DNA from: a virus
Taxonomy: Duplodnaviria > Caudoviricetes
Strand: one strand, 5' to 3'
DNA length: 64,000 nt
IMG/VR virus record: IMGVR_UViG_3300042361_000498
The notes beneath the pieces are model-generated. The model made no database searches. It saw only the letters and a list, made by a program, of their open reading frames with translations, and was not told the DNA's origin. The position numbers were made by a program, and so were the translations under genes. The first letter of the stretch is position 1; each line of letters opens with the position of its first letter. Below, piece after piece: positions 12,733 through 29,919 of this stretch.

Positions 12733-12760
12733 ATATTGATGAAAATTAAAACATCAATAT
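12733..12760. promoter_or_regulatory. 9-bp inverted repeat overlapping the TonB receptor start codon
   Basis: ATATTGATG-n10-CATCAATAT; right arm includes AT of the ATG at 12759. Confidence 0.4.
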
Positions 12761-15242
12761 GAGGAAACTACTTTTATTATTAACGTTACTAATTCCTACA
12801 ATATCCTTTTCACAAACCTTATCGGGTAAAACAAAATCAAATAAAGAAGAACTCATTGGAGTTACAATTTGGCTAACTAACAAAGATACAAATAAAAAAG
12901 TTGGAAGTACATCTGATATTGAATCCAAATATCAATTCCAAAATGTAGTAGTTGGAAACTATTCAATTAAAGCATCATTTGTTGGATATAAAGAATACAC
13001 AAAAGATATTACAATTAATGGAGATACCAATTTAGATATCCTAATTGAAGAAGATACAAAGGTATTGCAAGAAGTTGTGGTAAAGCAAGTAGCAAAGAAA
13101 GAAACTGCAACTGCACTTATCAATACACTTAAAGCATCTTACATTGTAGCAGATGGTTTATCAATTGAATCAATAAAGAAAACACCAGATAGAACTGTTG
13201 GAGATGCACTTAAAAGAGTTAGTGGTGTAACAATCCAAAACGATAAGTTTGTTTTAGTTAGAGGTTTAGCTGATAGATACAACTTGGCTCTACTAAACAA
13301 ATCAATCCTACCATCAACCGAACCTGATAGAAGAGCATTCTCATTTGATATTATCCCAACATCACTAATAGATAATATCATCATCAACAAAGGAGCATCT
13401 GCAAACCTACCCGGTGATTTCGCAGGAGGTTTAGTACAAATAACAACAAAAGAAGTTAGTGGTGATTTCTTTAATATATCATTGGGGGGCAGTTGGGGTT
13501 CACTATCAACGGGACAGGATTTTAGGTTGGTAGACGCTATACAATTCCCAACATCATTTCCATCAACAAATGGATATAGAATTGCGGGATTAGGTGATAG
13601 AAGAGCATACACTAAACTAATAGGTTCTCCGCAAACCGAAACATCAACATCTATTCCAAACTTAAATGGTAACTTATCATTTGGTGTTGTTAAAAACAAA
13701 TGGAACATCTTATTCAGTTCAACTGCAAGAAACACATACTCTGCCAACACAACTAAAAGAATTGATTACCAATCATCAACTGAATTAGCATACAACTATA
13801 AAGACCAGAACTATTCAAATGTACAATCATTAAATGGATTATTAAATATAGTTTATTTAGGTGAGAATCGTTATAGTTGGAAAACACTTGCTAACTACCA
13901 AAACGAAAAATCATTTTTAAGTAGAGTTGGTGAGAACTACGATAATGTTCAGTATGTAGATAGTAAATCATCCAACTCAATTCAAAAGTTAGTATTCAAT
14001 ACACAATTCGAAGGTAAGTTTAAAACATTTGATTTTAATTTAGGATACAATCTTATGTTAAGAGACCAGCCCGATTATAGAGTAACACCTTACATATCAT
14101 CTTTATATACAACAACTCCTTACTCAATAGCATGGAGAGACACGTATCGTTTTTGGAGTGTAATGGATGAAAACTCATTCAATGGGGGATTGAACAAATC
14201 CATAGGAGATGTTCGTTTAGGAGTGGGTTACTTGAAGAAATTTAGAAACTTCAAAGCAAGAATATTCAGATACGAATCAACTGATTTATTAAATGAGATT
14301 ACAAACAATACTGATAGATATACTGCCGATTTTGATTTGGCAAATGCATATGTGATGTATGAAAAAGAAATTGATAAATTAAAAATAAACACAGGTTTTA
14401 GAACGGAATACAATTTATTTAAAGTTCAAACATCTGATTTTGGTGGACAACGGATTTCAGTAGATAGAGAGTATTTGGATTTACTACCATCATTAAACGC
14501 AACCTATTCTACATCGGAAAAAAAAAAGGTTAGATTATCCGTAAGTAAAACATTAGCAAGACCAGAGTTTAGAGAGGTAGCTAATTTTGCATATTATGAT
14601 TTTGTTAGAAACGCACAACTATTAGGAAATCCAAACTTACAAAAAACGGATATATTCAATTCAGATATAAAGTTTGAGTTGTATCCTAAATCAGGTGAGA
14701 ACATATCAATCGGTTTCTTTGGTAAAAAGTTCTTCAATCCAATTGAGCAAGTTGTAGCAGATGGTTCAGTTCCATCAAACCTTTTACTAACATATAAAAA
14801 CCCAAAAGAAGCATTGGTATATGGAGTTGAGATTGAACTTCGTAAGAAATTAAATGATTGGATAGATTTATATTCAAACACATCGTTTATCAATTCGGAA
14901 GTACAAATCGGTTCAGTAAAAAGACAATTGCAAGGACAATCAAACTATGTAGTAAATGGTGGATTGAACTTACATAAAAACAACAATACATTCAACATAT
15001 CATACAATAGAGTTGGAGATAGAATATCAGCAGTAGGATTTCAAGGATACCCTGATATATTTGAAAACTCTCGTGATGTAGTTGATATTGTTATTCTTCG
15101 TAAAATTAAAAACGGAGAAATTAAATTAGCAGTATCGGATATATTCAGACAACCATTTGAGTATTATCAAAAACCAAATAGAACTTTAATTAAAACAAAC
15201 AACGAAACAACAGTTTCACTAACACTAAATTACAACCTATGA
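12759..15242 (+). CDS. TonB-dependent receptor with N-terminal carboxypeptidase-regulatory-like domain
   Basis: Signal peptide; GNYSIKASFVGY; LQEVVV TonB-box region; plug DALKRVSGVT...VRGLADRYN...DIIP..LIDNIIINKG...FAGGLVQITTK; barrel ending VSLTLNYNL. Confidence 0.93.
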   Translation: MRKLLLLLTLLIPTISFSQTLSGKTKSNKEELIGVTIWLTNKDTNKKVGSTSDIESKYQFQNVVVGNYSIKASFVGYKEYTKDITINGDTNLDILIEEDTKVLQEVVVKQVAKKETATALINTLKASYIVADGLSIESIKKTPDRTVGDALKRVSGVTIQNDKFVLVRGLADRYNLALLNKSILPSTEPDRRAFSFDIIPTSLIDNIIINKGASANLPGDFAGGLVQITTKEVSGDFFNISLGGSWGSLSTGQDFRLVDAIQFPTSFPSTNGYRIAGLGDRRAYTKLIGSPQTETSTSIPNLNGNLSFGVVKNKWNILFSSTARNTYSANTTKRIDYQSSTELAYNYKDQNYSNVQSLNGLLNIVYLGENRYSWKTLANYQNEKSFLSRVGENYDNVQYVDSKSSNSIQKLVFNTQFEGKFKTFDFNLGYNLMLRDQPDYRVTPYISSLYTTTPYSIAWRDTYRFWSVMDENSFNGGLNKSIGDVRLGVGYLKKFRNFKARIFRYESTDLLNEITNNTDRYTADFDLANAYVMYEKEIDKLKINTGFRTEYNLFKVQTSDFGGQRISVDREYLDLLPSLNATYSTSEKKKVRLSVSKTLARPEFREVANFAYYDFVRNAQLLGNPNLQKTDIFNSDIKFELYPKSGENISIGFFGKKFFNPIEQVVADGSVPSNLLLTYKNPKEALVYGVEIELRKKLNDWIDLYSNTSFINSEVQIGSVKRQLQGQSNYVVNGGLNLHKNNNTFNISYNRVGDRISAVGFQGYPDIFENSRDVVDIVILRKIKNGEIKLAVSDIFRQPFEYYQKPNRTLIKTNNETTVSLTLNYNL

Positions 15243-16441
15243 AAAAATTATTAGTATTGTTCGCAAGTTTAACAATCTTTGGATGTTCTAAAGATTTGGG
15301 TGGAGAAGTTACACCAATCAATGTACCAACCTCAACAACTTTGAGTGGTAATATCACATCAACTACAACTCTTACATCGGATAAAGAGTGGGTATTAAAA
15401 GGATATGTTTATGTAACCGATGGTGCTAAAGTTATCATTCAACCTGGCACAATTATCAAATCTGATATAAGTGAGAAAGGTGCATTGTGTATTGAAAGAG
15501 GAGCACAAATTGTAGCAGAAGGTACTGCATCAAAACCAATCATATTTACATCTGGTAGACCCGCAGGAGAAAGAACTCCCGGTGATTGGGGTGGTATTGT
15601 AATATTGGGTAGAGCAAAAACCAATAGAACATCCGAACCAACTATCGAAGGTGGTATTGGTAGAGCATATGGTGGAACAAACGATTTAGATAATAGTGGT
15701 ATCTTAAAATATGTTCGTATTGAATACGCTGGTATTGCGGCAATGCCAAACTCTGAAATCAACGCATTAACATTGGGTGGTGTTGGTAGTGGAACAATCA
15801 TTGAGAATGTTCAAACTATCTACGCTAACGATGATGCATTTGAGTTCTTTGGTGGAACTGTAAATGCAAAAAACTTATACGCATATGGAACTGCGGATGA
15901 TGATTTTGATTTTGATTTTGGATATAGAGGTAAAGTATCTAATTCAGTTTCTAAAAGAGACCCACAATTTGTAGATAATGGTGATGCAGGAAATGGTGTA
16001 GAGTGTGATAATGATGGTACAGGTTCATCAGCAGAACCATTCACACATCCTATATTAGATGGTGTAATTTTAATTGGACCAAATGATGCAGCATCTTTAC
16101 CAAACCATAATTTAGCAATGAGATGGAGAAGAGCAACTCAATTTGAGGTTTACAATTCTACAATCATTGGATATATGAAAGGTGGGTTCTCAATGGAAAG
16201 TAACGAAACTGCACAATTCTACAAAGATGGTGTAAGTAAATTTCAGAACAACAAAATTGGTTCATTTAATTTATTAAACTTTATCAGTAAAGCAACTACT
16301 ATTATTACATCTGATGCGGTTAAAACAAAGGCGTTGAGTGAGGGTAATACTGAAATAACTTTAACTGCTAGTGAAATAGAAACTTTATCTAAACCAAATT
16401 GGACGAATGGTTGGACAAAATTCCCAACAAAAGGAAATTAA
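15239..16441 (+). CDS. Beta-helix lipoprotein, partner of the TonB receptor
   Basis: Lipobox IFG-C; GDWGGIVILGRA, DNSGILKYVRIEYAG, NDDAFEFFGG, ADDDFDFDFGY repeats; ATGA overlap with the receptor. Confidence 0.75.
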   Translation: MKKLLVLFASLTIFGCSKDLGGEVTPINVPTSTTLSGNITSTTTLTSDKEWVLKGYVYVTDGAKVIIQPGTIIKSDISEKGALCIERGAQIVAEGTASKPIIFTSGRPAGERTPGDWGGIVILGRAKTNRTSEPTIEGGIGRAYGGTNDLDNSGILKYVRIEYAGIAAMPNSEINALTLGGVGSGTIIENVQTIYANDDAFEFFGGTVNAKNLYAYGTADDDFDFDFGYRGKVSNSVSKRDPQFVDNGDAGNGVECDNDGTGSSAEPFTHPILDGVILIGPNDAASLPNHNLAMRWRRATQFEVYNSTIIGYMKGGFSMESNETAQFYKDGVSKFQNNKIGSFNLLNFISKATTIITSDAVKTKALSEGNTEITLTASEIETLSKPNWTNGWTKFPTKGN

Positions 16442-22223: not shown

Positions 22224-23462
22224 ATGACATTACAAAATTCAAGTGTTGTATCTACGCAAATAACACAAACAGGACCGATAACTACTAGCGTAAGTAAGGG
22301 AATGGGATTTGTATATAGTGTTATATTAGATGAAACACATCCTGCTATAAAAGATAGTAATGGTAATAGAAAAATATCATATATAGGAGCAATTGAATAT
22401 AGGTTTGCAAATAATGTAGCATCTGATGATGCAAATTTACCAATTGCATTTCCATTTGATAAAAATTTTAAAAATTTACCGGTTGTAAACGAAAGTGTTG
22501 AAATTTATCAAAATGGTAGTGTGTCTATGTATAGGCGTGTTGGACAAGATATAACACCAAATATAAATTCAGACCAAAAAGCTATAACAAAACATTATGG
22601 TGAAAAAACAAAATTAGATAATAAAGGTAATGATTATAATAAAGTACAAACCACTGGTATAGTTAAAACAAATGTAAACGAATCATTGCAATTAGATGGG
22701 TTTGGAAAATATTTTAAAACAGAAAGGGGAATACACAGATTAAAATTATACGAAGGTGATAGTTTGGTTGAAACACGGTTTGGACAATCTATAAGATTCT
22801 CTGGATACAATAATCCTAAAAATGTATTCTCACCAACTGTAATAATTAGAAATGGCGAAAGTCAGATAACAAGAAAAAAACCAATAACAGAATCTATATT
22901 AGAAGATATAAATAAAGATGGCAGTATCATTGCTATGACATCTGACCAATATGAGTTATCGTTTTTACCTGGTACTGTTAGTGAAACTGGTACAACTGAT
23001 TTTCAAACAGCTCCAACATCATTTCAACAATATCCATCTAAATTAATTGGTGACCAAATTCTAATCAATTCTGGAAGATTGATATTTTCTGCAAAAAGTG
23101 CGGAAATGATATTTTATTCTAAAAAGAATTATGGGTTTATATCAGATGGTGCCATGTCAATTGATAATGCATTGGGGATTGATGTTAGTGTGGGTGGTGA
23201 TATAAATGTATTAACTAACGATAGGAGTGTTCATTTATATACAGGAAATGGTTCTATTATATTGGGTAGTCAGGGATTAGAACCATTGGTAAAAGGACAA
23301 ACTTTAGTAGATATATTGGGTGAGTTAATAGATACAATTGTAGCACAACAATATCTAACTCCATCCGGCCCAACTAAAATAGGTCCTGAAAATGTACCAA
23401 AATTTGCATCTATAAAGTCAAAACTTAATTCAATGTTAAGTAAATTAAATCAAACTGCTTAA
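22224..23462 (+). CDS. Baseplate central spike/hub (gp5/VgrG-like, no lysozyme domain)
   Basis: N-terminal OB-like region (LPIAFP...LPVVNESV); EGDSLVETRFGQSIRFS; C-terminal beta-helix-like strands QILINSGRLIFSAK; position before wedge genes. Confidence 0.55.
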   Translation: MTLQNSSVVSTQITQTGPITTSVSKGMGFVYSVILDETHPAIKDSNGNRKISYIGAIEYRFANNVASDDANLPIAFPFDKNFKNLPVVNESVEIYQNGSVSMYRRVGQDITPNINSDQKAITKHYGEKTKLDNKGNDYNKVQTTGIVKTNVNESLQLDGFGKYFKTERGIHRLKLYEGDSLVETRFGQSIRFSGYNNPKNVFSPTVIIRNGESQITRKKPITESILEDINKDGSIIAMTSDQYELSFLPGTVSETGTTDFQTAPTSFQQYPSKLIGDQILINSGRLIFSAKSAEMIFYSKKNYGFISDGAMSIDNALGIDVSVGGDINVLTNDRSVHLYTGNGSIILGSQGLEPLVKGQTLVDILGELIDTIVAQQYLTPSGPTKIGPENVPKFASIKSKLNSMLSKLNQTA

Positions 23463-23466
23463 ATAT

Positions 23467-24042
23467 ATGGCAACGATAATTCAACCACCATTACCAAAAT
23501 TTGATACTACATCACTAAATGCGGATTTGGCTAATAAAATAAAAGCGCCTGAATTGCAAGAAATACCTGATGGTAGTGGTAATTTACGTTCTATGATAAA
23601 AGACCAATCTATGCAATTGGGTACTAATATAGAAGGTACTTTAGACCAATTTGGAGAAAACATAGAAGCCGAAGCAGAGAGAAAAGCTGCAGAATTAGAA
23701 GCTGCTGCAAAACAAATAGAAGCGGCAGCATTAGCAGCTGCTAAAATGATTGAAGAAGAATTAAAAAGAAAAAAAGAAGAAGCAAAGAAAGCAATTGAAG
23801 ATGCAAAAAAAGAAGCAAAGGAGGCATTTCAAAAAGCACTAACCGCAAAAGAACAGGCGGAAGATATGATAGCAAAATTACGTGGATTTAAAATACCCAG
23901 ATTAAAAAAATTAAAACCCATACCAACAAAAGATTTACCAGCACCTCCTCAATATGCTAAATATATGGATGCTGATGCAAAACGGGAATACGCCGAAAAT
24001 GCTAAAAGTTCGGCAACAAAAGGAGAACCACCAATAGTATAA
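23467..24042 (+). CDS. Coiled-coil hypothetical protein
   Basis: A/E/K-rich heptads EAEAERKAAELEAAAKQIE... Confidence 0.7.
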   Translation: MATIIQPPLPKFDTTSLNADLANKIKAPELQEIPDGSGNLRSMIKDQSMQLGTNIEGTLDQFGENIEAEAERKAAELEAAAKQIEAAALAAAKMIEEELKRKKEEAKKAIEDAKKEAKEAFQKALTAKEQAEDMIAKLRGFKIPRLKKLKPIPTKDLPAPPQYAKYMDADAKREYAENAKSSATKGEPPIV

Positions 24043-24045
24043 ATT

Positions 24046-25110
24046 ATGTCTTGGGAAATATTTAAACAAAATATTGTAAGAATTTCAAATAGACCAGGTA
24101 GTATACCTGATATAGATACTGTGGCTAGGGCTTATGCAGTTGAATACGATGCTGCAATTAAAAGAGGATTTGATACTTTAAATAATATAGCAATTCAGCA
24201 AGGTGATGTTGCAACAATGGAAAGATTGTTTAAAATTGCTTTACAAAAAGGATTATCATCAACAGGTCCATATGATTTAGTTGGTGAAATGGGAAAGGGT
24301 GTAATTGCGTATTGGAGTGCACCAGGTGGGCCTGCTAGTATAGCTGATAATGCGGATGGTATTGATGCGGTGGAGGCTGAAGCAATTCAAACCGATATTA
24401 ATAGAGAATACCCAAAAACTCAATTAGAGTATGAAAGACAGTTTCCATCAAAAGAAGCCGCAATGGCAAATAATAGTAATGTTTCACCAAAAGAAGCATT
24501 AGATTCTGTAAACGATTTTAATAATGAAAAATCCCAAAGTAATGCTGATACTAAATTAGTTGGAAGGGGTGATACTGCATTATTTAATAAATGTGGAAAT
24601 GGAATATGGCCTGCATTGGGAACTGCTCCAAATTTTGAAATAAGAAGTATAGAAAATGCTGACTCAGATTGTCCTAGAAAATGGTACAAAACAAATCAAG
24701 AATATCTAACAAAAAATTGTACTCAAATAATGTTTCCAACTGCCAAAGGTAGTTCTAAAATATTAGTTCATAAAAATTTGGCAGCAATTATAAAACCCGC
24801 ATTAGAAGAAATAAAAGCAAAAGGATTGCAAAGATATATTGAAAATTGCGGAGGTGGGTTGGCTATTAGAAATGTAACTTGTGGTACTAGATTATCAAAT
24901 CATAGTTGGGGAACTGCGATTGATATGAATACGGGAATATACCCATATGGTGTAAAATTTAAATCAGATGGAATTTATAGTGGTAAGAAAAAACTTAGAG
25001 AACTTAATGAATTTGATAAAGGATTCCAACAAGTAGCAGCAATATTTAAATCAAAAGGAATGACATGGTTAAGTAATAATGACCCAATGCACGTTTCTAT
25101 ATATGAATAA
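24046..25110 (+). CDS. Virion-associated M15-family (L-Ala-D-Glu/D,D-type) peptidase
   Basis: R...LSNHSWGTAIDMN and DPMHVS zinc-binding motifs; separate ~90-aa N-terminal domain. Confidence 0.85.
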   Translation: MSWEIFKQNIVRISNRPGSIPDIDTVARAYAVEYDAAIKRGFDTLNNIAIQQGDVATMERLFKIALQKGLSSTGPYDLVGEMGKGVIAYWSAPGGPASIADNADGIDAVEAEAIQTDINREYPKTQLEYERQFPSKEAAMANNSNVSPKEALDSVNDFNNEKSQSNADTKLVGRGDTALFNKCGNGIWPALGTAPNFEIRSIENADSDCPRKWYKTNQEYLTKNCTQIMFPTAKGSSKILVHKNLAAIIKPALEEIKAKGLQRYIENCGGGLAIRNVTCGTRLSNHSWGTAIDMNTGIYPYGVKFKSDGIYSGKKKLRELNEFDKGFQQVAAIFKSKGMTWLSNNDPMHVSIYE

Positions 25111-25120
25111 TTATTAAGAT

Positions 25121-25957
25121 ATGGGAGCTATAATGAGAAACTTTCCAATACCACTTATACCAGCACCAGGCTCAACTGCCAATGTTGCTGTAATAAATAA
25201 TGTGGTTTTAAGTCCGGGAGTTTGGGGACCACCACAACCATCGGTAGGAGCAAGACAGGGAGATACTTTATCCGAAGAGGAAAAAGCTGGTGCACAAGAA
25301 GATTTGGATGTTGCAAAAAAAGATTTGCAAGAATTTCAAAATGACCCAACACCCGAAGGACAGGCTAAAGCACAAACTGCAAGAGAACAAATAGCATATC
25401 AATCGGAAAGATTGGGAAGTGGTGAGAATGCATCTTCATCGGATGTATCAAATGAACCAAAGCAAGAGATTATAGCAGATTTGCCACCTGATATGGAAAT
25501 AGGATTAAAAATAGTTCAATATGCTTTAAGAGATTTAGGAGTAACTGAAAATCCACTACCACCGGGAAAACCTGAAAATTCCGGTCCAAGAGTTTTACAA
25601 ATGTTAAAAGGTGTTGGATTTAATACACCCGCATATTGGTGTGCTGCTGCGGTATCTGCTTGGTATAAGAGTGCTGGTGCAAAATCACCCAATAGTGCAT
25701 CATGTGATGTTTGGATGAGTTGGGCAAAACGAAATGGATTGTTTAGTAGCAAACCTGCAATTGGAGCAGCTATTTTATATGGTAGTTCGGCAGATGCACA
25801 TCACATAGGAATTGTTGAGGCAATAAGTGGGGATAGAGTAACTACAATAGAAGGTAATACTTCTGGTGGTGGTTTTAGTAGAAACGGAGTAGGTGTATTC
25901 CGTAAATCAGCAAGAATTGCAAAAGCAGTTGGATTTGTATTACCAATAAAAAAATAA
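25121..25957 (+). CDS. Virion-associated CHAP-domain amidase/peptidase
   Basis: YWCAAAVSAWY (Cys), HIGIVE (His), TIEGNT. Confidence 0.85.
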   Translation: MGAIMRNFPIPLIPAPGSTANVAVINNVVLSPGVWGPPQPSVGARQGDTLSEEEKAGAQEDLDVAKKDLQEFQNDPTPEGQAKAQTAREQIAYQSERLGSGENASSSDVSNEPKQEIIADLPPDMEIGLKIVQYALRDLGVTENPLPPGKPENSGPRVLQMLKGVGFNTPAYWCAAAVSAWYKSAGAKSPNSASCDVWMSWAKRNGLFSSKPAIGAAILYGSSADAHHIGIVEAISGDRVTTIEGNTSGGGFSRNGVGVFRKSARIAKAVGFVLPIKK

Positions 25958-25961
25958 TAAA

Positions 25962-26894
25962 ATGTCAGCAGTTAGACCTACGGATAATACTGGAGTAATA
26001 GTTGATGAGTTCATTCGTTATGCAACTCAACATTTAACTACTGTAACCGGCGTTATATCAACAACATCTTTATATCCACCTTTGGGTACACCCGGACCGG
26101 GTATTATAAATTGGACAGGTTATACAGTTCCCCCAGCAGCACCATCAATACCTATTGGTCAAGTTGATACATCTGCAATAGAAATGACACCTGAACAAGA
26201 AGCAATAGCTGAAAGAGCATCACAAAGGGGAGCTGATTTAAATTCTGCAACCGCAGCTGCACTATCTGGTGTGGAATATACAGGCGGTTCTTCTGGTGGA
26301 GGTGGTGGAGGTGGTAGTGATTCTGGCGGTGTAGTATCTTTATCCGCAGATAAATTGCCGGTTGATGGTGTTGAAAAAATACCTAATTACAAAACAAGTG
26401 TAAAAGTTCCACCCGAAATAGTTGTTGCTATGAGAAAATATGGAGTGGGTAGAAGTCCTTTGGAAAGAGCACACTTTTTAGCACAATGTGCTCACGAAAG
26501 TGGAGGATTTATTTATAGAGAAGAATTGGCAAGTGGAGCTGCATATGAAGGTAGACGTGATTTGGGTAATACACAACCTGGCGATGGTGTACGATATAAA
26601 GGTAGGGGATATATTCAATTAACGGGTAGAGCAAACTATACAAAATTTGGACCTGTTGCTGGTGGTGATTTTGTAGGAAATCCAAGAGTAGTTGCACAGC
26701 AATATTATGCTGATACCGCTTGTTTATTTTGGAAATCAAATAGTTTAGGTCCAAAATGTGTTAATTCATCGATTGATACTATTAAAGTTGTAACTAAAAG
26801 AATCAATGGTGGTTATAATGGATTGAACGATAGAGTAAGTAGATTTGCAGTTTATTGGAGAGAATTACAAAGAGACCCGACACTTTGGGCATAA
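25962..26894 (+). CDS. Virion-associated GH19 lysozyme/chitinase-like glycosidase
   Basis: AHFLAQCAHESGGF, YEGRRDLGNTQPGDGVRYKGRGYIQLTGRANY, KRINGGYNGLNDR. Confidence 0.92.
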   Translation: MSAVRPTDNTGVIVDEFIRYATQHLTTVTGVISTTSLYPPLGTPGPGIINWTGYTVPPAAPSIPIGQVDTSAIEMTPEQEAIAERASQRGADLNSATAAALSGVEYTGGSSGGGGGGGSDSGGVVSLSADKLPVDGVEKIPNYKTSVKVPPEIVVAMRKYGVGRSPLERAHFLAQCAHESGGFIYREELASGAAYEGRRDLGNTQPGDGVRYKGRGYIQLTGRANYTKFGPVAGGDFVGNPRVVAQQYYADTACLFWKSNSLGPKCVNSSIDTIKVVTKRINGGYNGLNDRVSRFAVYWRELQRDPTLWA

Positions 26895-26916
26895 ATCCCA
26901 AAAATAAACAAATCAA

Positions 26917-26925
26917 ATATTTATA
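26917..26925 (+). promoter_or_regulatory. ATATTTATA putative late promoter
   Basis: 24 nt before the ATG at 26950. Confidence 0.6.
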
Positions 26926-26949
26926 TTAACAACAACGAAAGATAATCAA

Positions 26950-27456
26950 ATGAATACGGATAAATTATTAAAAGCTATTCAAATTCTTATCAAAGAGGAG
27001 TTAAAACAACAACTCCCTGCTTTGATTAAAGAAGGAGTGAAAGCGGAAATGAAAAAGGTTTTAGCGGAAGGAAATACTAAACCACAACCTAAAAAAGAAA
27101 GTGAAGGATTTTCAATGGCTAAAGCAATATTGGGGAATGATACTATTAAGGAATCGGTTGAAACTAAAGTAGTAGAAACTAAACAATTTAGTAAAAACCC
27201 AATTATTAATCAAATTTTAAATGAAACAAGAGGTGGTATCCCACAAGGTGATGGTGGTTTTAGAACAATGAATTTTGGACAAGGTGATATGGGGTCTGTT
27301 GTAGGTAGAACTGCAGTAGCTGATAAAATGGGATATGGTGATTTAGCTAGAGGACCTCAACCAAGTGGATTAGGTGTTCAAACTGGGGTGCCTGAATTGG
27401 ATAAAGCATTGAACAGAGATTATTCAGAATTAGTAAAACGATTTAATAAAAAATAA
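26950..27456 (+). CDS. Hypothetical protein, possibly an internal head/core protein
   Basis: Repeated hydrophobic-x-E sites (LIKE, VLAE, IKES, ILNET). Confidence 0.6.
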   Translation: MNTDKLLKAIQILIKEELKQQLPALIKEGVKAEMKKVLAEGNTKPQPKKESEGFSMAKAILGNDTIKESVETKVVETKQFSKNPIINQILNETRGGIPQGDGGFRTMNFGQGDMGSVVGRTAVADKMGYGDLARGPQPSGLGVQTGVPELDKALNRDYSELVKRFNKK

Positions 27457-27878
27457 TGGCAGTATTATTAGGTCAAAGGATGGTTAAAGATACAATTGCA
27501 TATAACGATTATGCTATTGGTATTACATTGCCATTACAAATAGGAAATAATGCATTTAATCAATCATTTAAAACAATTGACCAAGTAAAAACAAATATTA
27601 AAAACCTTTTATTAACAAAAAGAAAAGAAAGAGTAATGCAACCGGAATTGGGTAGTGGCTTACAAGAATTACTTTTTGATTTTAATGATGACTTTTTAGC
27701 TGATGAAATAGAAGAAGTTATTACAAACAGTATGGAAAAGTGGTTGCCATACGTTACTATTGAAGAAATTGATGTTAGACAGACTGATGAATTTAAGGAT
27801 ACCAATCGTGTTGAAATTTCATTAACATTTAGTATAACAAATAATGTAGGTATGGAGACAGTAACCTTTACAGTATAA
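27456..27878 (+). CDS. Baseplate wedge subunit, gp25-like
   Basis: QVKTNIKNLLLTKRKERVMQPELGSGLQELLFD...EKWLPYVTIEEI. Confidence 0.88.
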   Translation: MAVLLGQRMVKDTIAYNDYAIGITLPLQIGNNAFNQSFKTIDQVKTNIKNLLLTKRKERVMQPELGSGLQELLFDFNDDFLADEIEEVITNSMEKWLPYVTIEEIDVRQTDEFKDTNRVEISLTFSITNNVGMETVTFTV

Positions 27879-27882
27879 AAAA

Positions 27883-29919
27883 ATGGCATTAACTACAATA
27901 AATAAGAATTTTAAAAACAAAGGAAAAGATATAAAATATCTAAATAAAGACTTTGCTGCATTTAGAGAAAACTTAATTGAATTTTCTAAAACATATTTTC
28001 CAAAAACATATTCTGATTTTAATGAAACATCACCTGGTATGATGTTTATTGAATTAGCATCGTATGTTGGTGATTCATTATCTTATTATGTAGATGATAC
28101 TTTAAAAGAATCATTAATGCCATACGCTGAAGATATTCAAAGTGTAATTGCATTATCTCAATTTTTGGGATATAAACCAAAAGTAACATCTCCAGCAATA
28201 ACAAATGTATCGGTATATCAATTAATTCCATCAATTGGAAGTGGTGTTAATAACAAACCAGATGAAACATATTTTCTTAGAATAAAAGAAGGTATGCGAT
28301 TACAATCTACTGAAAATGATATTTTATTTAGAACAACAGACGTAGTTGATTTTAATGATGAAAACAATAGAGAGATTACAATTTACGAAAGAGATGTAAA
28401 TACTGGAGAACCTACTTTTTATTTGGTTAAAAAATATGTACAAGCAATATCAGCTATCACATCGGAAAGAACATTTACGTTTGGAGCATATCAACCATTT
28501 CAATCAATAACATTAGATGAAACGAACATTATTCAAATATATGATGTTAGGGATTCGAATGGAAACAAATATTATGAAGTTCCATATTTGGGACAAGAAA
28601 TGGTGTATATTGAACAACCAACAACAGAATCAAATGATGCTGAATTATATCAATTTAAAACAACAGTTCCATATATTCTTAAAACTATAAAAACACCAAG
28701 AAGATTTGTAGCAAAAGTAAATCAAAATAGTACAACTACATTACAATTTGGAGCAGGTGACCCATCCGCATCGGATGAACAATTAATACCAAATCTTAAA
28801 AATGTAGGACTTGGTTTACCAAACTCAATTAGTAGATTGGAAGAATCATTTGACCCAACTAATTTTTTAAAAACAAAAACGTATGGAACATCTCCATCAA
28901 ACACAAGTATTATTGTTAAATATTTTGTAGGTGGTGGTATTAGTTCAAATATAGTTAAAGGTGATTTGACTAGAATAGTTGGAATAGAATATGAAGATGA
29001 TATTGATTCATTTACAAATGCACAAATAGCAACATATAATAGTATTAAAAATTCAGTAGCAGTTGATAACGAAATACCCGCAACAGGTGGTAGAGATGGT
29101 GAAACTATTGAAGAGATTAGACAAAACGCATTGGCAAACTTTGGTGCACAAAATAGAGCAGTAACTGCAAAAGATTATCAAGTTAGAGCATTATCATTAC
29201 CATCAAAATATGGTGGTGTTGCTAAAGCATTTGCAACTGCAGATGGTACATTGGATAATAATTCACCTGCTTCTATATTAGCATCACCAAATCATTTACA
29301 AGAGTTTACGGATTTGGTTATGAGTTTTGTTAATAAGCCTGATTCAGAAGAACCAACTATACAATCCGTTAAGCAAGATATTACAACATATTTAATTGGT
29401 AAAGATTCCAACTTAAAGGAAAAAAATAATCCGTTTGCAATTAACCTCTATTTGTTGGGATATGATTTAAACGGAAATCTTACAAATCTTAATAAAGCAG
29501 TAAAAGAAAATCTTAAAACTTATATGAACGAATACCGAATGTTGACAGATGGTGTTAATATAAGTGATGGGTATATTATAAATATTGGTGTTGAGTTTGA
29601 TATTATCATATATAACAACTACAACAAAAGTGAAGTACTTACTAAATGTATTACTGAATTGAAAGATTATTTTAATATAGATAATTGGACATTCAATCAA
29701 ACAATTAATTTAAGCGAAGTAGAATTACTAATAGCAAACGTTGAAGGTGTATCATCAGTACCAATGATGAAAATAACAAATAAATGTGGTGGAAATTATT
29801 CACCAAATTCATATAACGTAGATGCTGCAACTAAAGATAAAATTGTATATCCATCGTTAGACCCATCTATTTTTGAAATTAAGTTTCCGGATTCAGACAT
29901 TAAAGGACGAGTAAGATAA
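27883..29919 (+). CDS. Baseplate wedge subunit, gp6/baseplate-J-like
   Basis: KDFAAFRENLIEF...SDFNETSPGMMFIELASYVGDSLSYYVD; GGRDGETIEEIR...QNRAVTAKDY. Confidence 0.88.
   Translation: MALTTINKNFKNKGKDIKYLNKDFAAFRENLIEFSKTYFPKTYSDFNETSPGMMFIELASYVGDSLSYYVDDTLKESLMPYAEDIQSVIALSQFLGYKPKVTSPAITNVSVYQLIPSIGSGVNNKPDETYFLRIKEGMRLQSTENDILFRTTDVVDFNDENNREITIYERDVNTGEPTFYLVKKYVQAISAITSERTFTFGAYQPFQSITLDETNIIQIYDVRDSNGNKYYEVPYLGQEMVYIEQPTTESNDAELYQFKTTVPYILKTIKTPRRFVAKVNQNSTTTLQFGAGDPSASDEQLIPNLKNVGLGLPNSISRLEESFDPTNFLKTKTYGTSPSNTSIIVKYFVGGGISSNIVKGDLTRIVGIEYEDDIDSFTNAQIATYNSIKNSVAVDNEIPATGGRDGETIEEIRQNALANFGAQNRAVTAKDYQVRALSLPSKYGGVAKAFATADGTLDNNSPASILASPNHLQEFTDLVMSFVNKPDSEEPTIQSVKQDITTYLIGKDSNLKEKNNPFAINLYLLGYDLNGNLTNLNKAVKENLKTYMNEYRMLTDGVNISDGYIINIGVEFDIIIYNNYNKSEVLTKCITELKDYFNIDNWTFNQTINLSEVELLIANVEGVSSVPMMKITNKCGGNYSPNSYNVDAATKDKIVYPSLDPSIFEIKFPDSDIKGRVR

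What the first reader, a model, noticed from the sequence alone, without database searches (positions are those of the whole stretch)
24046..26894. Three tandem peptidoglycan hydrolases that appear to carry consecutive pieces of one split structural domain
Seen: M15 peptidase, CHAP and GH19 target different bonds. Each sits at the C-terminus behind an acidic or Gly-rich linker and a short non-catalytic leader. The leaders read as a continuous sequence: ...MGKGVIAYWS (24046-24318) | GAIMRNFPIPLIPAPGS...PGVWGPPQP (25121-25240) | AVRPTDNTGVIVDEFI...WTGYTVP (25962-26132). I recall single phage proteins with this continuous order, but that is unverified. Inference: an ancestral baseplate protein was fragmented so that each fragment carries a different enzyme and they reassemble by fragment complementation into a three-enzyme wall drill beside a lysozyme-less gp5-like spike.
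Basis: partly seen in the sequence, partly recalled or inferred. Interest (0 to 1): 0.78.

Follow-up and report, generated by a model that had tools for sequence, protein, structure and literature searches.

The report
Split baseplate anchor carrying three lysins
A large uncultured lake-water phage has cut one small baseplate protein into three pieces, each attached to a different cell-wall-cutting enzyme; related phages keep the same protein in one or two pieces, so the pieces very probably snap back together to hold three enzymes at the tail tip.

Summary

- **Genes.** Three adjacent genes, 24046-25110, 25121-25957 and 25962-26894, end in Peptidase_M15_4, CHAP and GH19 domains. They lie between a spike-like gene and the gp25/gp6 baseplate genes.
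- **Leaders are collinear.** Their leaders L1 (about 91 aa), L2 (about 40 aa) and L3 (about 57 aa) are consecutive parts of one roughly 190-aa domain.
- **Relatives.** In 157 related IMG/VR loci, most phages have two genes: L1-L2-linker-enzyme and L3-linker-enzyme. Five loci and 15 further protein clusters have L1-L2-L3-enzyme in one chain. At least 23 clusters are bare 180-193-aa proteins in the same gene slot.
- **Fold and assembly.** The one-chain form is predicted as one compact fold (pLDDT 81, pTM 0.77) with no solved relative. The window's three leaders are predicted to assemble: ipSAE 0.65 against 0.02 for the best control.
- **Recurrence.** The three-gene form occurs in a second, distant lineage at the same L1|L2 junction, and the two lineages are not one clade (AU p 2e-44).
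- **Cargo varies.** It includes CHAP, VanY, GH24, GH19, M15 and M23, and it differs between near-identical strains.
- **Untested.** Presence in the virion, physical assembly and enzyme activity.

It is a new variant of tail-associated lysins on an undescribed anchor family. First readers of this scan noted the same stretch in other windows.

The parts
22224..23462 (+). 412-aa central-spike-like protein. It has an OB-like beta-barrel at the N-terminus, a beta-rich middle and C-terminal helices, and no lysozyme domain.
   Evidence: No Pfam or PHROG hit. Atlas feature search scores 0.90 to Gp5_OB clusters, which is a lead only. The AF2 monomer is poor, pLDDT 59. The best Foldseek rows are weak (E >= 0.014) but are mostly central spikes: P1 baseplate, VgrG, eCIS, pyocin R2, T4 gp5. 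It is conserved upstream of the anchor in about 100 loci.
23467..24042 (+). 191-aa coiled-coil protein. It is a variable gene between spike and anchor, absent from most relatives, where the anchor gene directly follows the spike gene.
   Evidence: Only weak coiled-coil type hits. tblastn finds it in only L009 and L010, at 28% identity.
24046..24318 (+). L1: anchor segment 1 (ORF1 aa 1-91), four helices.
   Evidence: 66-72% identical to the N-terminus of gene A in relatives, where L2 follows directly in the same ORF. It corresponds to H2-15, H23-40, H60-77 and H86-97 of the one-chain model.
24319..24645 (+). Acidic linker and conserved pre-domain of the M15 module (ORF1 aa 92-200). It travels together with the M15 domain.
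   Evidence: The lnk1 segment always co-occurs with M15 in relatives, in either gene A or gene B. 24339-25114 is absent from the closest relative, L055.
24646..25110 (+). Peptidase_M15_4 (VanY-like zinc peptidase) cargo of ORF1, stop codon included.
   Evidence: Pfam PF13539, 33 bits against a cut-off of 25. The H-x6-D and terminal His motifs are visible in the translation. Nearest module is the gene-B cargo of L023, 76% identical.
25121..25240 (+). L2: anchor segment 2 (ORF2 aa 1-40), Pro-rich lead-in plus a long beta-strand or hairpin.
   Evidence: Aligns with the residues that follow AYWxG in unsplit homologues. In the complex model, residues 2-38 contact L1 43-54 and 80-91 and L3 19-50.
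25241..25495 (+). Acidic linker of ORF2 (aa 41-125).
   Evidence: Low-complexity, E/D/K-rich in the translation. No domain hit.
25496..25957 (+). CHAP cargo of ORF2, stop codon included.
   Evidence: Pfam PF05257, 30.6 bits against a cut-off of 26. phrog_9589 endolysin, E 4e-21. Cys (YWCAAAV) and His (AHHIGIV) are present.
25962..26132 (+). L3: anchor segment 3 (ORF3 aa 1-57), one helix plus a beta-hairpin.
   Evidence: Homologous to the N-terminus of gene B in 111 loci, and to residues of about 138-195 in one-chain anchors.
26133..26396 (+). Linker of ORF3 (aa 58-145), including a poly-Gly tract.
   Evidence: translation. The lnk3 segment co-occurs with GH19 in relatives.
26397..26894 (+). 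GH19 (lysozyme/chitinase-type glycosidase) cargo of ORF3, stop codon included.
   Evidence: Pfam PF00182, 31.5 bits against a cut-off of 25.5. phrog_181 endolysin, E 1.8e-40. About 50% identical to phage GH19 endolysins.
26950..27456 (+). 168-aa conserved protein of unknown family, always between the anchor gene(s) and gp25.
   Evidence: Syntenic in essentially all related loci, including those with a bare anchor. No family hit.
27456..27878 (+). gp25-like baseplate wedge protein.
   Evidence: Pfam GPW_gp25, E 1.5e-11. phrog_261, E 2e-22.
27883..29919 (+). gp6 / Baseplate_J-like wedge protein.
   Evidence: PHROGs 6, 219 and 10646, baseplate wedge, E about 1e-16 to 1e-17. 38-43% identical to proteins of Flavobacterium immuto phages (annotated baseplate wedge protein there) and Microcystis phage Mel-JY01 (annotated hypothetical protein).

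Best explanation
**What it is.** L1, L2 and L3 are the three consecutive parts of one roughly 190-aa structural protein of the baseplate module, called the 'anchor' here. Its family has no Pfam, PHROG or solved-structure relative. In other phages the anchor is a bare protein, or carries one C-terminal peptidoglycan hydrolase on a flexible linker. Most often it is encoded as two genes (L1-L2-linker-enzyme and L3-linker-enzyme).

**What happened in this phage.** A linker-M15 module with a stop codon, a 10-nt spacer and a new start codon sits exactly at the loop between L1 and L2. The anchor is therefore made as three polypeptides, each carrying a different enzyme.

**How it probably works (inferred).** The three leaders fold together. 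The L2 strand pairs antiparallel with the L3 hairpin and packs on the L1 helical bundle. The rebuilt anchor takes its normal place near the central spike. The M15 peptidase, CHAP and GH19 domains hang from it on acidic or Gly-rich tethers. On tail contraction they would cut the peptide stems and the glycan strands of the host's peptidoglycan locally, to let the tube through.

**Shown here:** collinearity, synteny, modular cargo, recurrence of the split, purifying selection, and support from independent metagenome assemblies.

**Inferred:** co-folding, virion incorporation, the role in entry, and the direction of change (fission of one gene rather than fusion of several).
For: 1. **Domains and ORFs:**
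2. **Collinearity in relatives.** Architecture counts over the fetched loci include [L1-L2][L3-GH19] 33, [L1-L2-M15][L3-M15] 10, [L1-L2-CHAP][L3-GH19] 8, [L1-L2-M15][L3-GH19] 7, [L1-L2-L3-GH19] 2 and [L1-L3-GH19] 3. In the last class the 41-aa gap is a diverged L2. Alignments A1 and A6 show the segments in register.
3. **One-chain forms are widespread.** 15 clusters carry GH19, CHAP or unknown cargo and 23 clusters are bare. A profile search of 1.84 billion representatives finds 343 clusters. Of the best 150, 55 are a full anchor with a C-terminal extension, 28 are bare, and 34 are L1-L2 only with an extension.
4. **Same slot.** The bare anchor sits in the order spike - anchor - p188 - gp25 - gp6.
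5. **One fold.** The AF2 model of the one-chain N-terminus has pLDDT 81 and pTM 0.77. Both cut points fall in coil between secondary-structure elements, at residues 98-113 and 128-142.
6. **Predicted assembly.** For the window's own three leaders the model supports binding but does not show it. Score 0.65; best of 3 controls 0.02. That mark was reached by 58 of 80 solved complexes and 2 of 110 mismatched pairs; these counts hold only roughly here, because my own alignments and three chains were used. The runs agree in at least 78% of contacts, and the partner's pLDDT is at least 61. No similar solved complex exists, so the pass is not from memory of a structure.
7. **Recurrence.** L036 and L057 (spike 41% identical) have [L1-linker-M15][L2-X][L3-GH19 or GH24], cut at the same junction. 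Their relatives L109, L106 and L113 have L1-L2-X unsplit. The three-gene rows are not one clade on the spike tree, AU p 2.25e-44. The two M15 modules are not each other's nearest relatives.
8. **Selection.** dN/dS is 0.02-0.29 for L1, L2 and L3, including the bare 104-aa L1 of L055.
9. **Not an assembly artefact.** 20 lake-water runs hold at least 94% of the sampled words. Unitigs from runs X15, X16 and X18 bridge both L1->linker and M15-end->ORF2-start with no differences.
10. **Cargo is nearly always a wall hydrolase.** Of 99 cargo-bearing representatives: CHAP 19, VanY 10, Phage_lysozyme 6, GH19 6, M15_4 5, M23 2.
Against: - There is no experimental evidence that any of the three proteins is in the virion, that the leaders bind one another, or that the enzymes are active.
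- The anchor has no recognisable relative among solved baseplate structures: best Z 5.1, Foldseek E >= 0.12. Its place in the baseplate rests on gene order alone.
- No other peptidoglycan hydrolase was found in the 133-kb record, which is about 70% complete. A role in lysis from within cannot be excluded.
- The direction of change (fission or fusion) is not settled. The trees are midpoint-rooted, and a one-chain form (L117) nests among two-gene forms on a long branch.
- The complex prediction used unpaired alignments that I built myself, and a three-chain set-up unlike the tool's calibration.
Confidence: 0.72

Rival explanations
1. The three proteins are the phage's endolysins, acting from within at the end of infection, or they serve both entry and lysis. 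In this reading the conserved N-terminal pieces are a regulatory or targeting device rather than a virion anchor.
For: M15_4, CHAP and GH19 are typical endolysin domains, and PHROGs calls them 'endolysin'. No other peptidoglycan hydrolase was found in the 133-kb record: Phage_lysozyme, Amidase_2 and SLT profiles, and tblastn with all cargo types.
Against: - The genes lie inside the baseplate block, between the spike-like gene and gp25/gp6.
- The N-terminal domain exists as a bare 190-aa protein in exactly that slot in phages that carry no enzyme there. That fits a structural protein, not an endolysin regulator.
- The record is only about 70% complete, so an endolysin elsewhere is not excluded.
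- No holin or spanin lies beside the three genes.
Confidence: 0.15
2. The pieces do not reassemble. Each leader binds its own site on the baseplate independently, or some pieces, such as L1, are decaying remnants of a broken gene.
For: Baseplate proteins often bind through short extended segments. The closest relative, L055, has an L1 with no enzyme, which could be read as decay.
Against: - In one-chain homologues the three parts form one confidently predicted compact fold.
- L2 is a roughly 40-aa strand that contacts both L1 and L3 in the complex model, with controls at 0.00-0.02. It is unlikely to fold alone.
- L1 stays an intact ORF under purifying selection in L055 (dN/dS 0.29) and in L036/L057 (dN/dS 0.02).
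Confidence: 0.1
3. The three-gene arrangement is an assembly chimera of co-occurring strains whose real genomes have two genes.
For: Unitigs break at the module borders (about 24297, 25066-25095 and 26920), and alternative continuations exist in the same runs. The population is therefore mixed, and the shared M15 body could mislead an assembler.
Against: - Both diagnostic junctions are bridged by unitigs with zero differences in three runs not flagged as the source. These are L1 directly onto the M15-type linker, and the M15 3' end followed 10 nt later by an ORF that starts with L2.
- The L1|L2 split itself is present in L055/L083 and, independently, in L036/L057 from other samples.
Confidence: 0.03

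Closest known systems
[quoted passage not shown]
   Same: A wall-cutting domain is joined to a structural protein at the tail tip and is encoded in the baseplate module. It presumably opens the peptidoglycan locally during tail contraction.
   Different: In those phages the carrier is the spike or the gp27-like hub, made as one polypeptide. Here the carrier is a separate roughly 190-aa protein of an unnamed family with no solved relative. It is split into two or three polypeptides and carries up to three different enzymes. The spike-like protein itself has no lysozyme.
Two-domain tail lysins such as phi29 gp13 (lysozyme plus M23 peptidase) and staphylococcal tail lysins (CHAP plus lysozyme) - recalled from established knowledge, not tested here
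   Same: Several bond specificities are combined at the tail tip.
   Different: Those enzymes lie in tandem in one chain. Here each enzyme has its own chain and tether, and they would be brought together only when the anchor pieces co-fold.
'Evolved' VgrG / PAAR / Rhs proteins of type VI secretion, and polymorphic toxin systems: a conserved N-terminal delivery domain with an exchangeable C-terminal cargo - established knowledge
   Same: A conserved N-terminal structural module is joined to highly variable C-terminal enzyme cargo. The cargo is swapped at linker boundaries even between near-identical strains: L023 against the window, and the unitig joint 25110->26891.
   Different: The cargo here is peptidoglycan hydrolases of a phage, not toxins. 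No homology to VgrG or PAAR was found for the anchor.
GH19 protein of Microcystis phage Mel-JY01 (WWT39505.1, annotated 'putative chitinase'), encoded between the gene that occupies the spike gene's position and gp25/gp6
   Same: It has the same position in a related baseplate block (gp6 43% identical) and the same GH19 cargo.
   Different: Its N-terminal 150 aa is low-complexity and shows no similarity to the anchor profile: hhalign probability 0.1%.

Membership tests
Unnamed ~190-aa baseplate-module 'anchor' family (bare members P0016-P0038; BFVD A0A6J5MBZ8) | Collinear sequence homology over the whole domain (L1, then L2, then L3) | tested here: met
   The window's three leaders align in order with one-chain members. 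tblastn finds L1, L2 and L3 in one frame in L118, L119 and L158-L162.
Unnamed ~190-aa baseplate-module 'anchor' family (bare members P0016-P0038; BFVD A0A6J5MBZ8) | Gene position between the spike-like gene and p168/gp25/gp6 | tested here: met
   Same order in the window, in about 100 IMG/VR loci and in loci with a bare anchor.
Unnamed ~190-aa baseplate-module 'anchor' family (bare members P0016-P0038; BFVD A0A6J5MBZ8) | One compact fold formed by the three parts together | tested here: met
   This is prediction only. One-chain model: pLDDT 81, pTM 0.77. It matches a 182-aa stand-alone viral protein model at TM 0.78/0.92. Three-chain model of the window's leaders: ipSAE 0.65 against 0.02 for the best control.
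Unnamed ~190-aa baseplate-module 'anchor' family (bare members P0016-P0038; BFVD A0A6J5MBZ8) | Structural component of the virion | not testable with these tools
   No cultured member was found: tblastn against 50,697 phage records gave no hit.
Peptidase_M15_4 (PF13539) | Profile match above the curated cut-off, and zinc-ligand motifs | tested here: met
   33 bits against a cut-off of 25, aa 280-351. SNHSWGTAID (H-x6-D) and DPMH are visible in the translation.
CHAP (PF05257) | Profile match above the cut-off, and catalytic Cys and His | tested here: met
   30.6 bits against a cut-off of 26. YWCAAAV and AHHIGIV are visible in the translation.
Glycoside hydrolase family 19 (PF00182) | Profile match above the cut-off, and a catalytic Glu in the AHE motif | tested here: met
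   31.5 bits against a cut-off of 25.5. phrog_181, E 1.8e-40. AHESGGF and GRGYIQLTGRANY are visible in the translation.
Virion-associated peptidoglycan hydrolase / tail-associated lysin | Encoded in the tail or baseplate module and joined to a structural domain | tested here: met
Virion-associated peptidoglycan hydrolase / tail-associated lysin | Present in the particle, and muralytic activity | not testable with these tools
   Needs proteomics or zymography; the phage is uncultured.
T4 gp5-type spike with built-in lysozyme | OB-fold plus beta-helix central spike | tested here: inconclusive
   Atlas features score 0.90 to Gp5_OB clusters. Weak Foldseek rows go to central spikes, E >= 0.014, from a poor monomer model of pLDDT 59.
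T4 gp5-type spike with built-in lysozyme | Lysozyme domain inside the spike polypeptide | tested here: not met
   No lysozyme or other hydrolase family in the 412-aa protein. No Phage_lysozyme match anywhere in the record.

The most novel reading that the evidence does not exclude
The anchor is a naturally split, self-assembling scaffold. Phages of this group cut one small baseplate protein at two surface loops, L1|L2 and L2|L3. The L1|L2 cut has been made at least twice independently. Each cut creates an extra C-terminus, so one anchor can carry one, two or three interchangeable wall hydrolases. This would be a combinatorial 'lysin rack' whose cargo is shuffled between co-occurring strains to track variation in host cell walls.
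Probability: 0.5. Interest if true: 0.78.

Novelty: new variant of a known kind. Interest (0 to 1): 0.68.

Why it matters
- **Undescribed family.** The scan turns up a widespread baseplate protein family (343 clusters at 50% identity) that serves as a docking module for cell-wall hydrolases.
- **Gene fission as a design principle.** Cutting a small domain at its loops multiplies the number of enzymes a phage can mount at the tail tip. If the co-folding is real, it is a rare natural case of three-fragment protein complementation.
- **Evolutionary series.** The forms run bare, one enzyme, two genes, three genes. That series can be used to study how split proteins arise.
- **Cargo and host range.** The cargo repertoire and its exchange between near-identical strains bear on how host range evolves in abundant lake phages of Bacteroidota.
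- **Practical use.** The roughly 40-90-aa leaders could serve as self-assembling tags, and the cargo set is a source of tail-type lysins for Gram-negative walls.

Tried and rejected
- **Isolated phages hold no anchor.** tblastn of the three whole proteins and of a bare anchor against 50,697 phage records found only the enzyme domains, never the leaders.
- **No fold relative for the anchor.** Foldseek against the PDB: best E 0.12. VIA-align over 48,161 chains: best Z 5.1, with only helical look-alikes. Profile against PDB sequences: one chance hit at E 0.094. Only unnamed viral models matched. This shows neither that the fold is new nor what it is.
- **No family name for the anchor.** Pfam, PHROGs and named atlas clusters gave nothing.
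- **Is the anchor T4 gp53?** The Phage_gp53 profile found nothing in the record, but it also found nothing in the control genomes, so the test is uninformative.
- **Spike identity.** The monomer model was too poor (pLDDT 59) for a firm match.
- **Mel-JY01.** The GH19 protein at the same slot has no similarity to the anchor.
- **A possible fourth pattern, [L1][L2-L3...].** Representatives P0141, P0148 and P0170 seemed to begin at L2. P0141 lies on a 721-nt contig. P0170 lies behind a 255-nt uncalled gap in a polished long-read contig, which could be a frameshift. I did not count them.
- **Paralogous repeats.** I considered whether the three leaders are repeats of one another. Their sequences and predicted secondary structure differ: helices, a strand, and a helix plus hairpin.
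- **Recoding.** Joining the ORFs by recoding was considered and dropped. The three frames differ, and relatives show clean start and stop codons at the same places.
- **Literature.** Full-text searches for split baseplate lysins found nothing relevant.
Full report
**Setting.** The window is part of a 133-kb IMG/VR virus record, estimated about 70% complete, with about 30% G+C. Near-identical sequence occurs in 20 lake-water metagenome runs. I confirmed the habitat but did not test the host. The finding lies in a co-directional structural block:
- a 412-aa spike-like protein (22224-23462);
- a 191-aa coiled-coil protein;
- the three genes in question;
- a conserved 168-aa protein;
- a gp25-like protein (Pfam E 1.5e-11);
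- a gp6/Baseplate_J-like protein.

**The observation.** The ORFs are 24046-25110, 25121-25957 and 25962-26894. They lie in three different frames, with spacers of 10 nt and 4 nt. Each ends in a different wall hydrolase above Pfam's curated cut-offs: Peptidase_M15_4, CHAP and Glyco_hydro_19. PHROGs endolysin families agree. The usual catalytic signatures are visible in the translations: H-x6-D and a terminal His; Cys and His; AHE and GRGYIQLTG. Against 50,697 isolated phage genomes only the enzyme domains find relatives. The leaders find none.

**Are the leaders pieces of one protein?** I fetched 157 related loci from IMG/VR using ORF1 and ORF3. I then mapped twelve segments onto them by tblastn: spike, L1, L2, L3, linkers, enzymes, p168, gp25 and gp6. 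Hits were grouped by the ORF that holds them. The result is clear:
- In the great majority of relatives, L1 and L2 are contiguous in one frame of one gene (gene A: L1-L2-linker-enzyme).
- L3 opens the next gene (gene B: L3-linker-enzyme).
- Five loci encode L1-L2-L3-GH19 as one protein of 448-455 aa.

A word-indexed search of 5.8 billion proteins adds 15 clusters of such one-chain proteins, with GH19, CHAP or unknown cargo. It also adds 23 clusters of bare 180-193-aa proteins that end right after L3.

A profile of the one-chain forms was searched against 1.84 billion cluster representatives. It finds 343 clusters at E <= 0.001. Of the best 150, 55 are a full anchor with a C-terminal extension, 28 are bare anchors, and 34 are L1-L2 only with an extension. 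Bare anchors sit in the same slot, in the order spike - anchor - p188 - gp25 - gp6, and include marine contigs.

**The fold.** The one-chain N-terminus (L118, 215 aa, alignment of 90 rows) is predicted with pLDDT 81 and pTM 0.77:
- four helices (L1);
- a long strand at 114-127 (L2);
- a helix and two strands (L3).

Both cut points fall in coil, at residues 98-113 and 128-142. No solved structure resembles the model: Foldseek E >= 0.12, VIA-align best Z 5.1, and nothing from a sequence profile. It does match unnamed viral models. One is a stand-alone 182-aa protein at TM 0.78/0.92. Others are Atlas clusters of 165-236 aa, or larger ones with CHAP or M15_4. The anchor has no Pfam, PHROG or named-atlas family.

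**Do the window's pieces reassemble?** I folded the three leaders as separate chains, each with its own alignment, and scored L2 as the partner. The model supports binding but does not show it:
- Score 0.65; best of 3 controls 0.02.
- That mark was reached by 58 of 80 solved complexes and 2 of 110 mismatched pairs. These counts hold only roughly here, because I used my own alignments and three chains.
- The runs agree in at least 78% of contacts, and the partner's pLDDT is at least 61.
- L2 residues 2-38 touch L1 43-54 and 80-91 and L3 19-50. The most certain pairs form an antiparallel ladder between L2 18-31 and L3 28-37.
- No similar complex has been solved, so the pass is not a memory of a structure.

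In the common two-gene form, L3 is already on a separate chain from L2. Inter-chain completion of this sheet would therefore be the norm in this group, and the window adds a second cut.

**How the three-gene form arose.**
- The closest relative (L055/L083, about 90% identical) has the same L1|L2 cut, but its L1 protein is only 104 aa. The window has about 775 nt more (24339-25114), which is the linker-M15 module. L055 keeps the first 13 residues of that linker, so it looks like a deletion derivative.
- A distant lineage (L036/L057, spike 41% identical) has [L1-linker-M15][L2-X][L3-GH19 or GH24], cut at the very same position. Its own relatives L109, L106 and L113 have L1-L2-X unsplit.
- On a spike tree the four three-gene rows fall in two places. 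Forcing them into one clade costs 321 log-likelihood units (AU p 2.25e-44).
- The two M15 modules are not each other's nearest relatives. The window's is 76% identical to the gene-B module of L023. L036's is 58.6% identical to those of L048-50 and 54.7% to the window's.

Two separate insertions of a linker-M15 cassette at the same loop are therefore more likely than one event, though an old transfer of the whole arrangement is not excluded.

All three segments are under purifying selection (dN/dS 0.02-0.29), including the bare L1. Whether the family began as one gene (fission) or several (fusion) is not formally settled, because the trees are unrooted. I favour fission, since L2 and L3 share one sheet and L2 is too small to fold alone.

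**Cargo.**
- Across the fetched loci the anchors carry M15_4, CHAP, GH19, VanY, Phage_lysozyme, Hydrolase_2, a weak M15_3 and several unnamed domains.
- Among 99 cargo-bearing representatives, Pfam finds CHAP 19, VanY 10, Phage_lysozyme 6, GH19 6, M15_4 5, M23 2, M15_3 2, and single cases of other families.
- Cargo changes between near-identical strains. L023 shares a 100% identical CHAP end with the window but has L3-linker-M15 where the window has L3-linker-GH19.
- In the lake runs, unitigs break at module borders. One joint links the M15 end (25110) directly to the end of ORF3 (26891), as expected for such a variant living alongside.

**Is the arrangement real?** In three runs not flagged as the possible source (X15, X16, X18), unitigs with zero differences bridge both diagnostic junctions. 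One is L1 onto the M15-type linker (for example 24279-24548 and 24279-25005). The other is the last 43 nt of ORF1 onto ORF2 (25068-25598, 25068-25848 and 25068-26926).

**Neighbours.** The 412-aa protein has no lysozyme. Its identity as a gp5-like spike rests on a feature-space lead (0.90 to Gp5_OB clusters) and on weak fold matches dominated by central spikes, obtained from a poor monomer model.

**Other hydrolases.** No other wall hydrolase was found in the record. The record is incomplete, which leaves room for the rival view that these proteins also serve in lysis.

**Comparison and verdict.** Enzymes built into baseplate core proteins are well known. Examples are the T4 gp5 lysozyme and the CHAP 'cleaver' of the phage 812 hub (PMC13433997). 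What differs here:
- the carrier is an undescribed small protein, distinct from the spike and the hub;
- it is encoded in one, two or three pieces;
- the cuts recur at the same loops;
- each cut adds a tether for another, freely exchanged hydrolase.

I found no description of this in two full-text searches. I class it as a new variant of a known kind.

My confidence is high for the collinear split, and fair for reassembly and for a virion-borne role in entry. First readers of this scan noted the same stretch in other windows.

Noticed in passing
L036:5328-8998 and L057:11143-13620: In the distant three-gene lineage, a TonB-dependent-receptor-like gene (825 aa) and a lipoprotein gene (398 aa) are inserted inside the baseplate block, between gene B and the p168 homologue. 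In the window a similar pair lies elsewhere, at 12759-16441.
   Followed up: no
window:24297, 25066-25095, 26920 (runs X15, X16, X18, X2): Unitigs of the lake metagenomes break at the module borders, with alternative continuations. One example after 24318 reads in frame as TQQAPTPLLP, which looks like an L2. One joint links 25110 directly to 26891. Several cargo and architecture variants of this phage therefore co-occur in the same lakes.
   Followed up: partly
window:23467-24042: The 191-aa coiled-coil gene between spike and anchor is not conserved. In many relatives the anchor gene starts a few bases after the spike gene. Others have an unrelated insert of about 900 nt there.
   Followed up: no
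L164:4930-5961 (Microcystis phage Mel-JY01, PP395634.1): A cultured phage with a related gp6 (43% identical) encodes a GH19 protein at the same slot. Its N-terminal 150 aa is low-complexity and unrelated to the anchor. This may be a different way of tethering the same enzyme.
   Followed up: partly
L165:3747-4435: On a 244-kb polished long-read contig, the called anchor gene (P0170) begins at the end of L1 and the start of L2, behind a 255-nt stretch with no called gene. This is either another L1|L2 split or a frameshift error.
   Followed up: no
L070:2717-3922, L036:3306-4241, L080:4821-5933, L047:1669-2634: Several recurrent cargo domains have no Pfam family. One is the '...GHIQVWTG...' type carried by L2 in L036/L057 and by gene A in ten loci. 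They are probably further wall hydrolases.
   Followed up: no
window:24074-24270: Contigs in three runs join 24074 to 24270, skipping 195 nt inside L1, with only 30 letters on the shorter side. This most likely reflects relatives that share the conserved ends of L1, not a real deletion.
   Followed up: no
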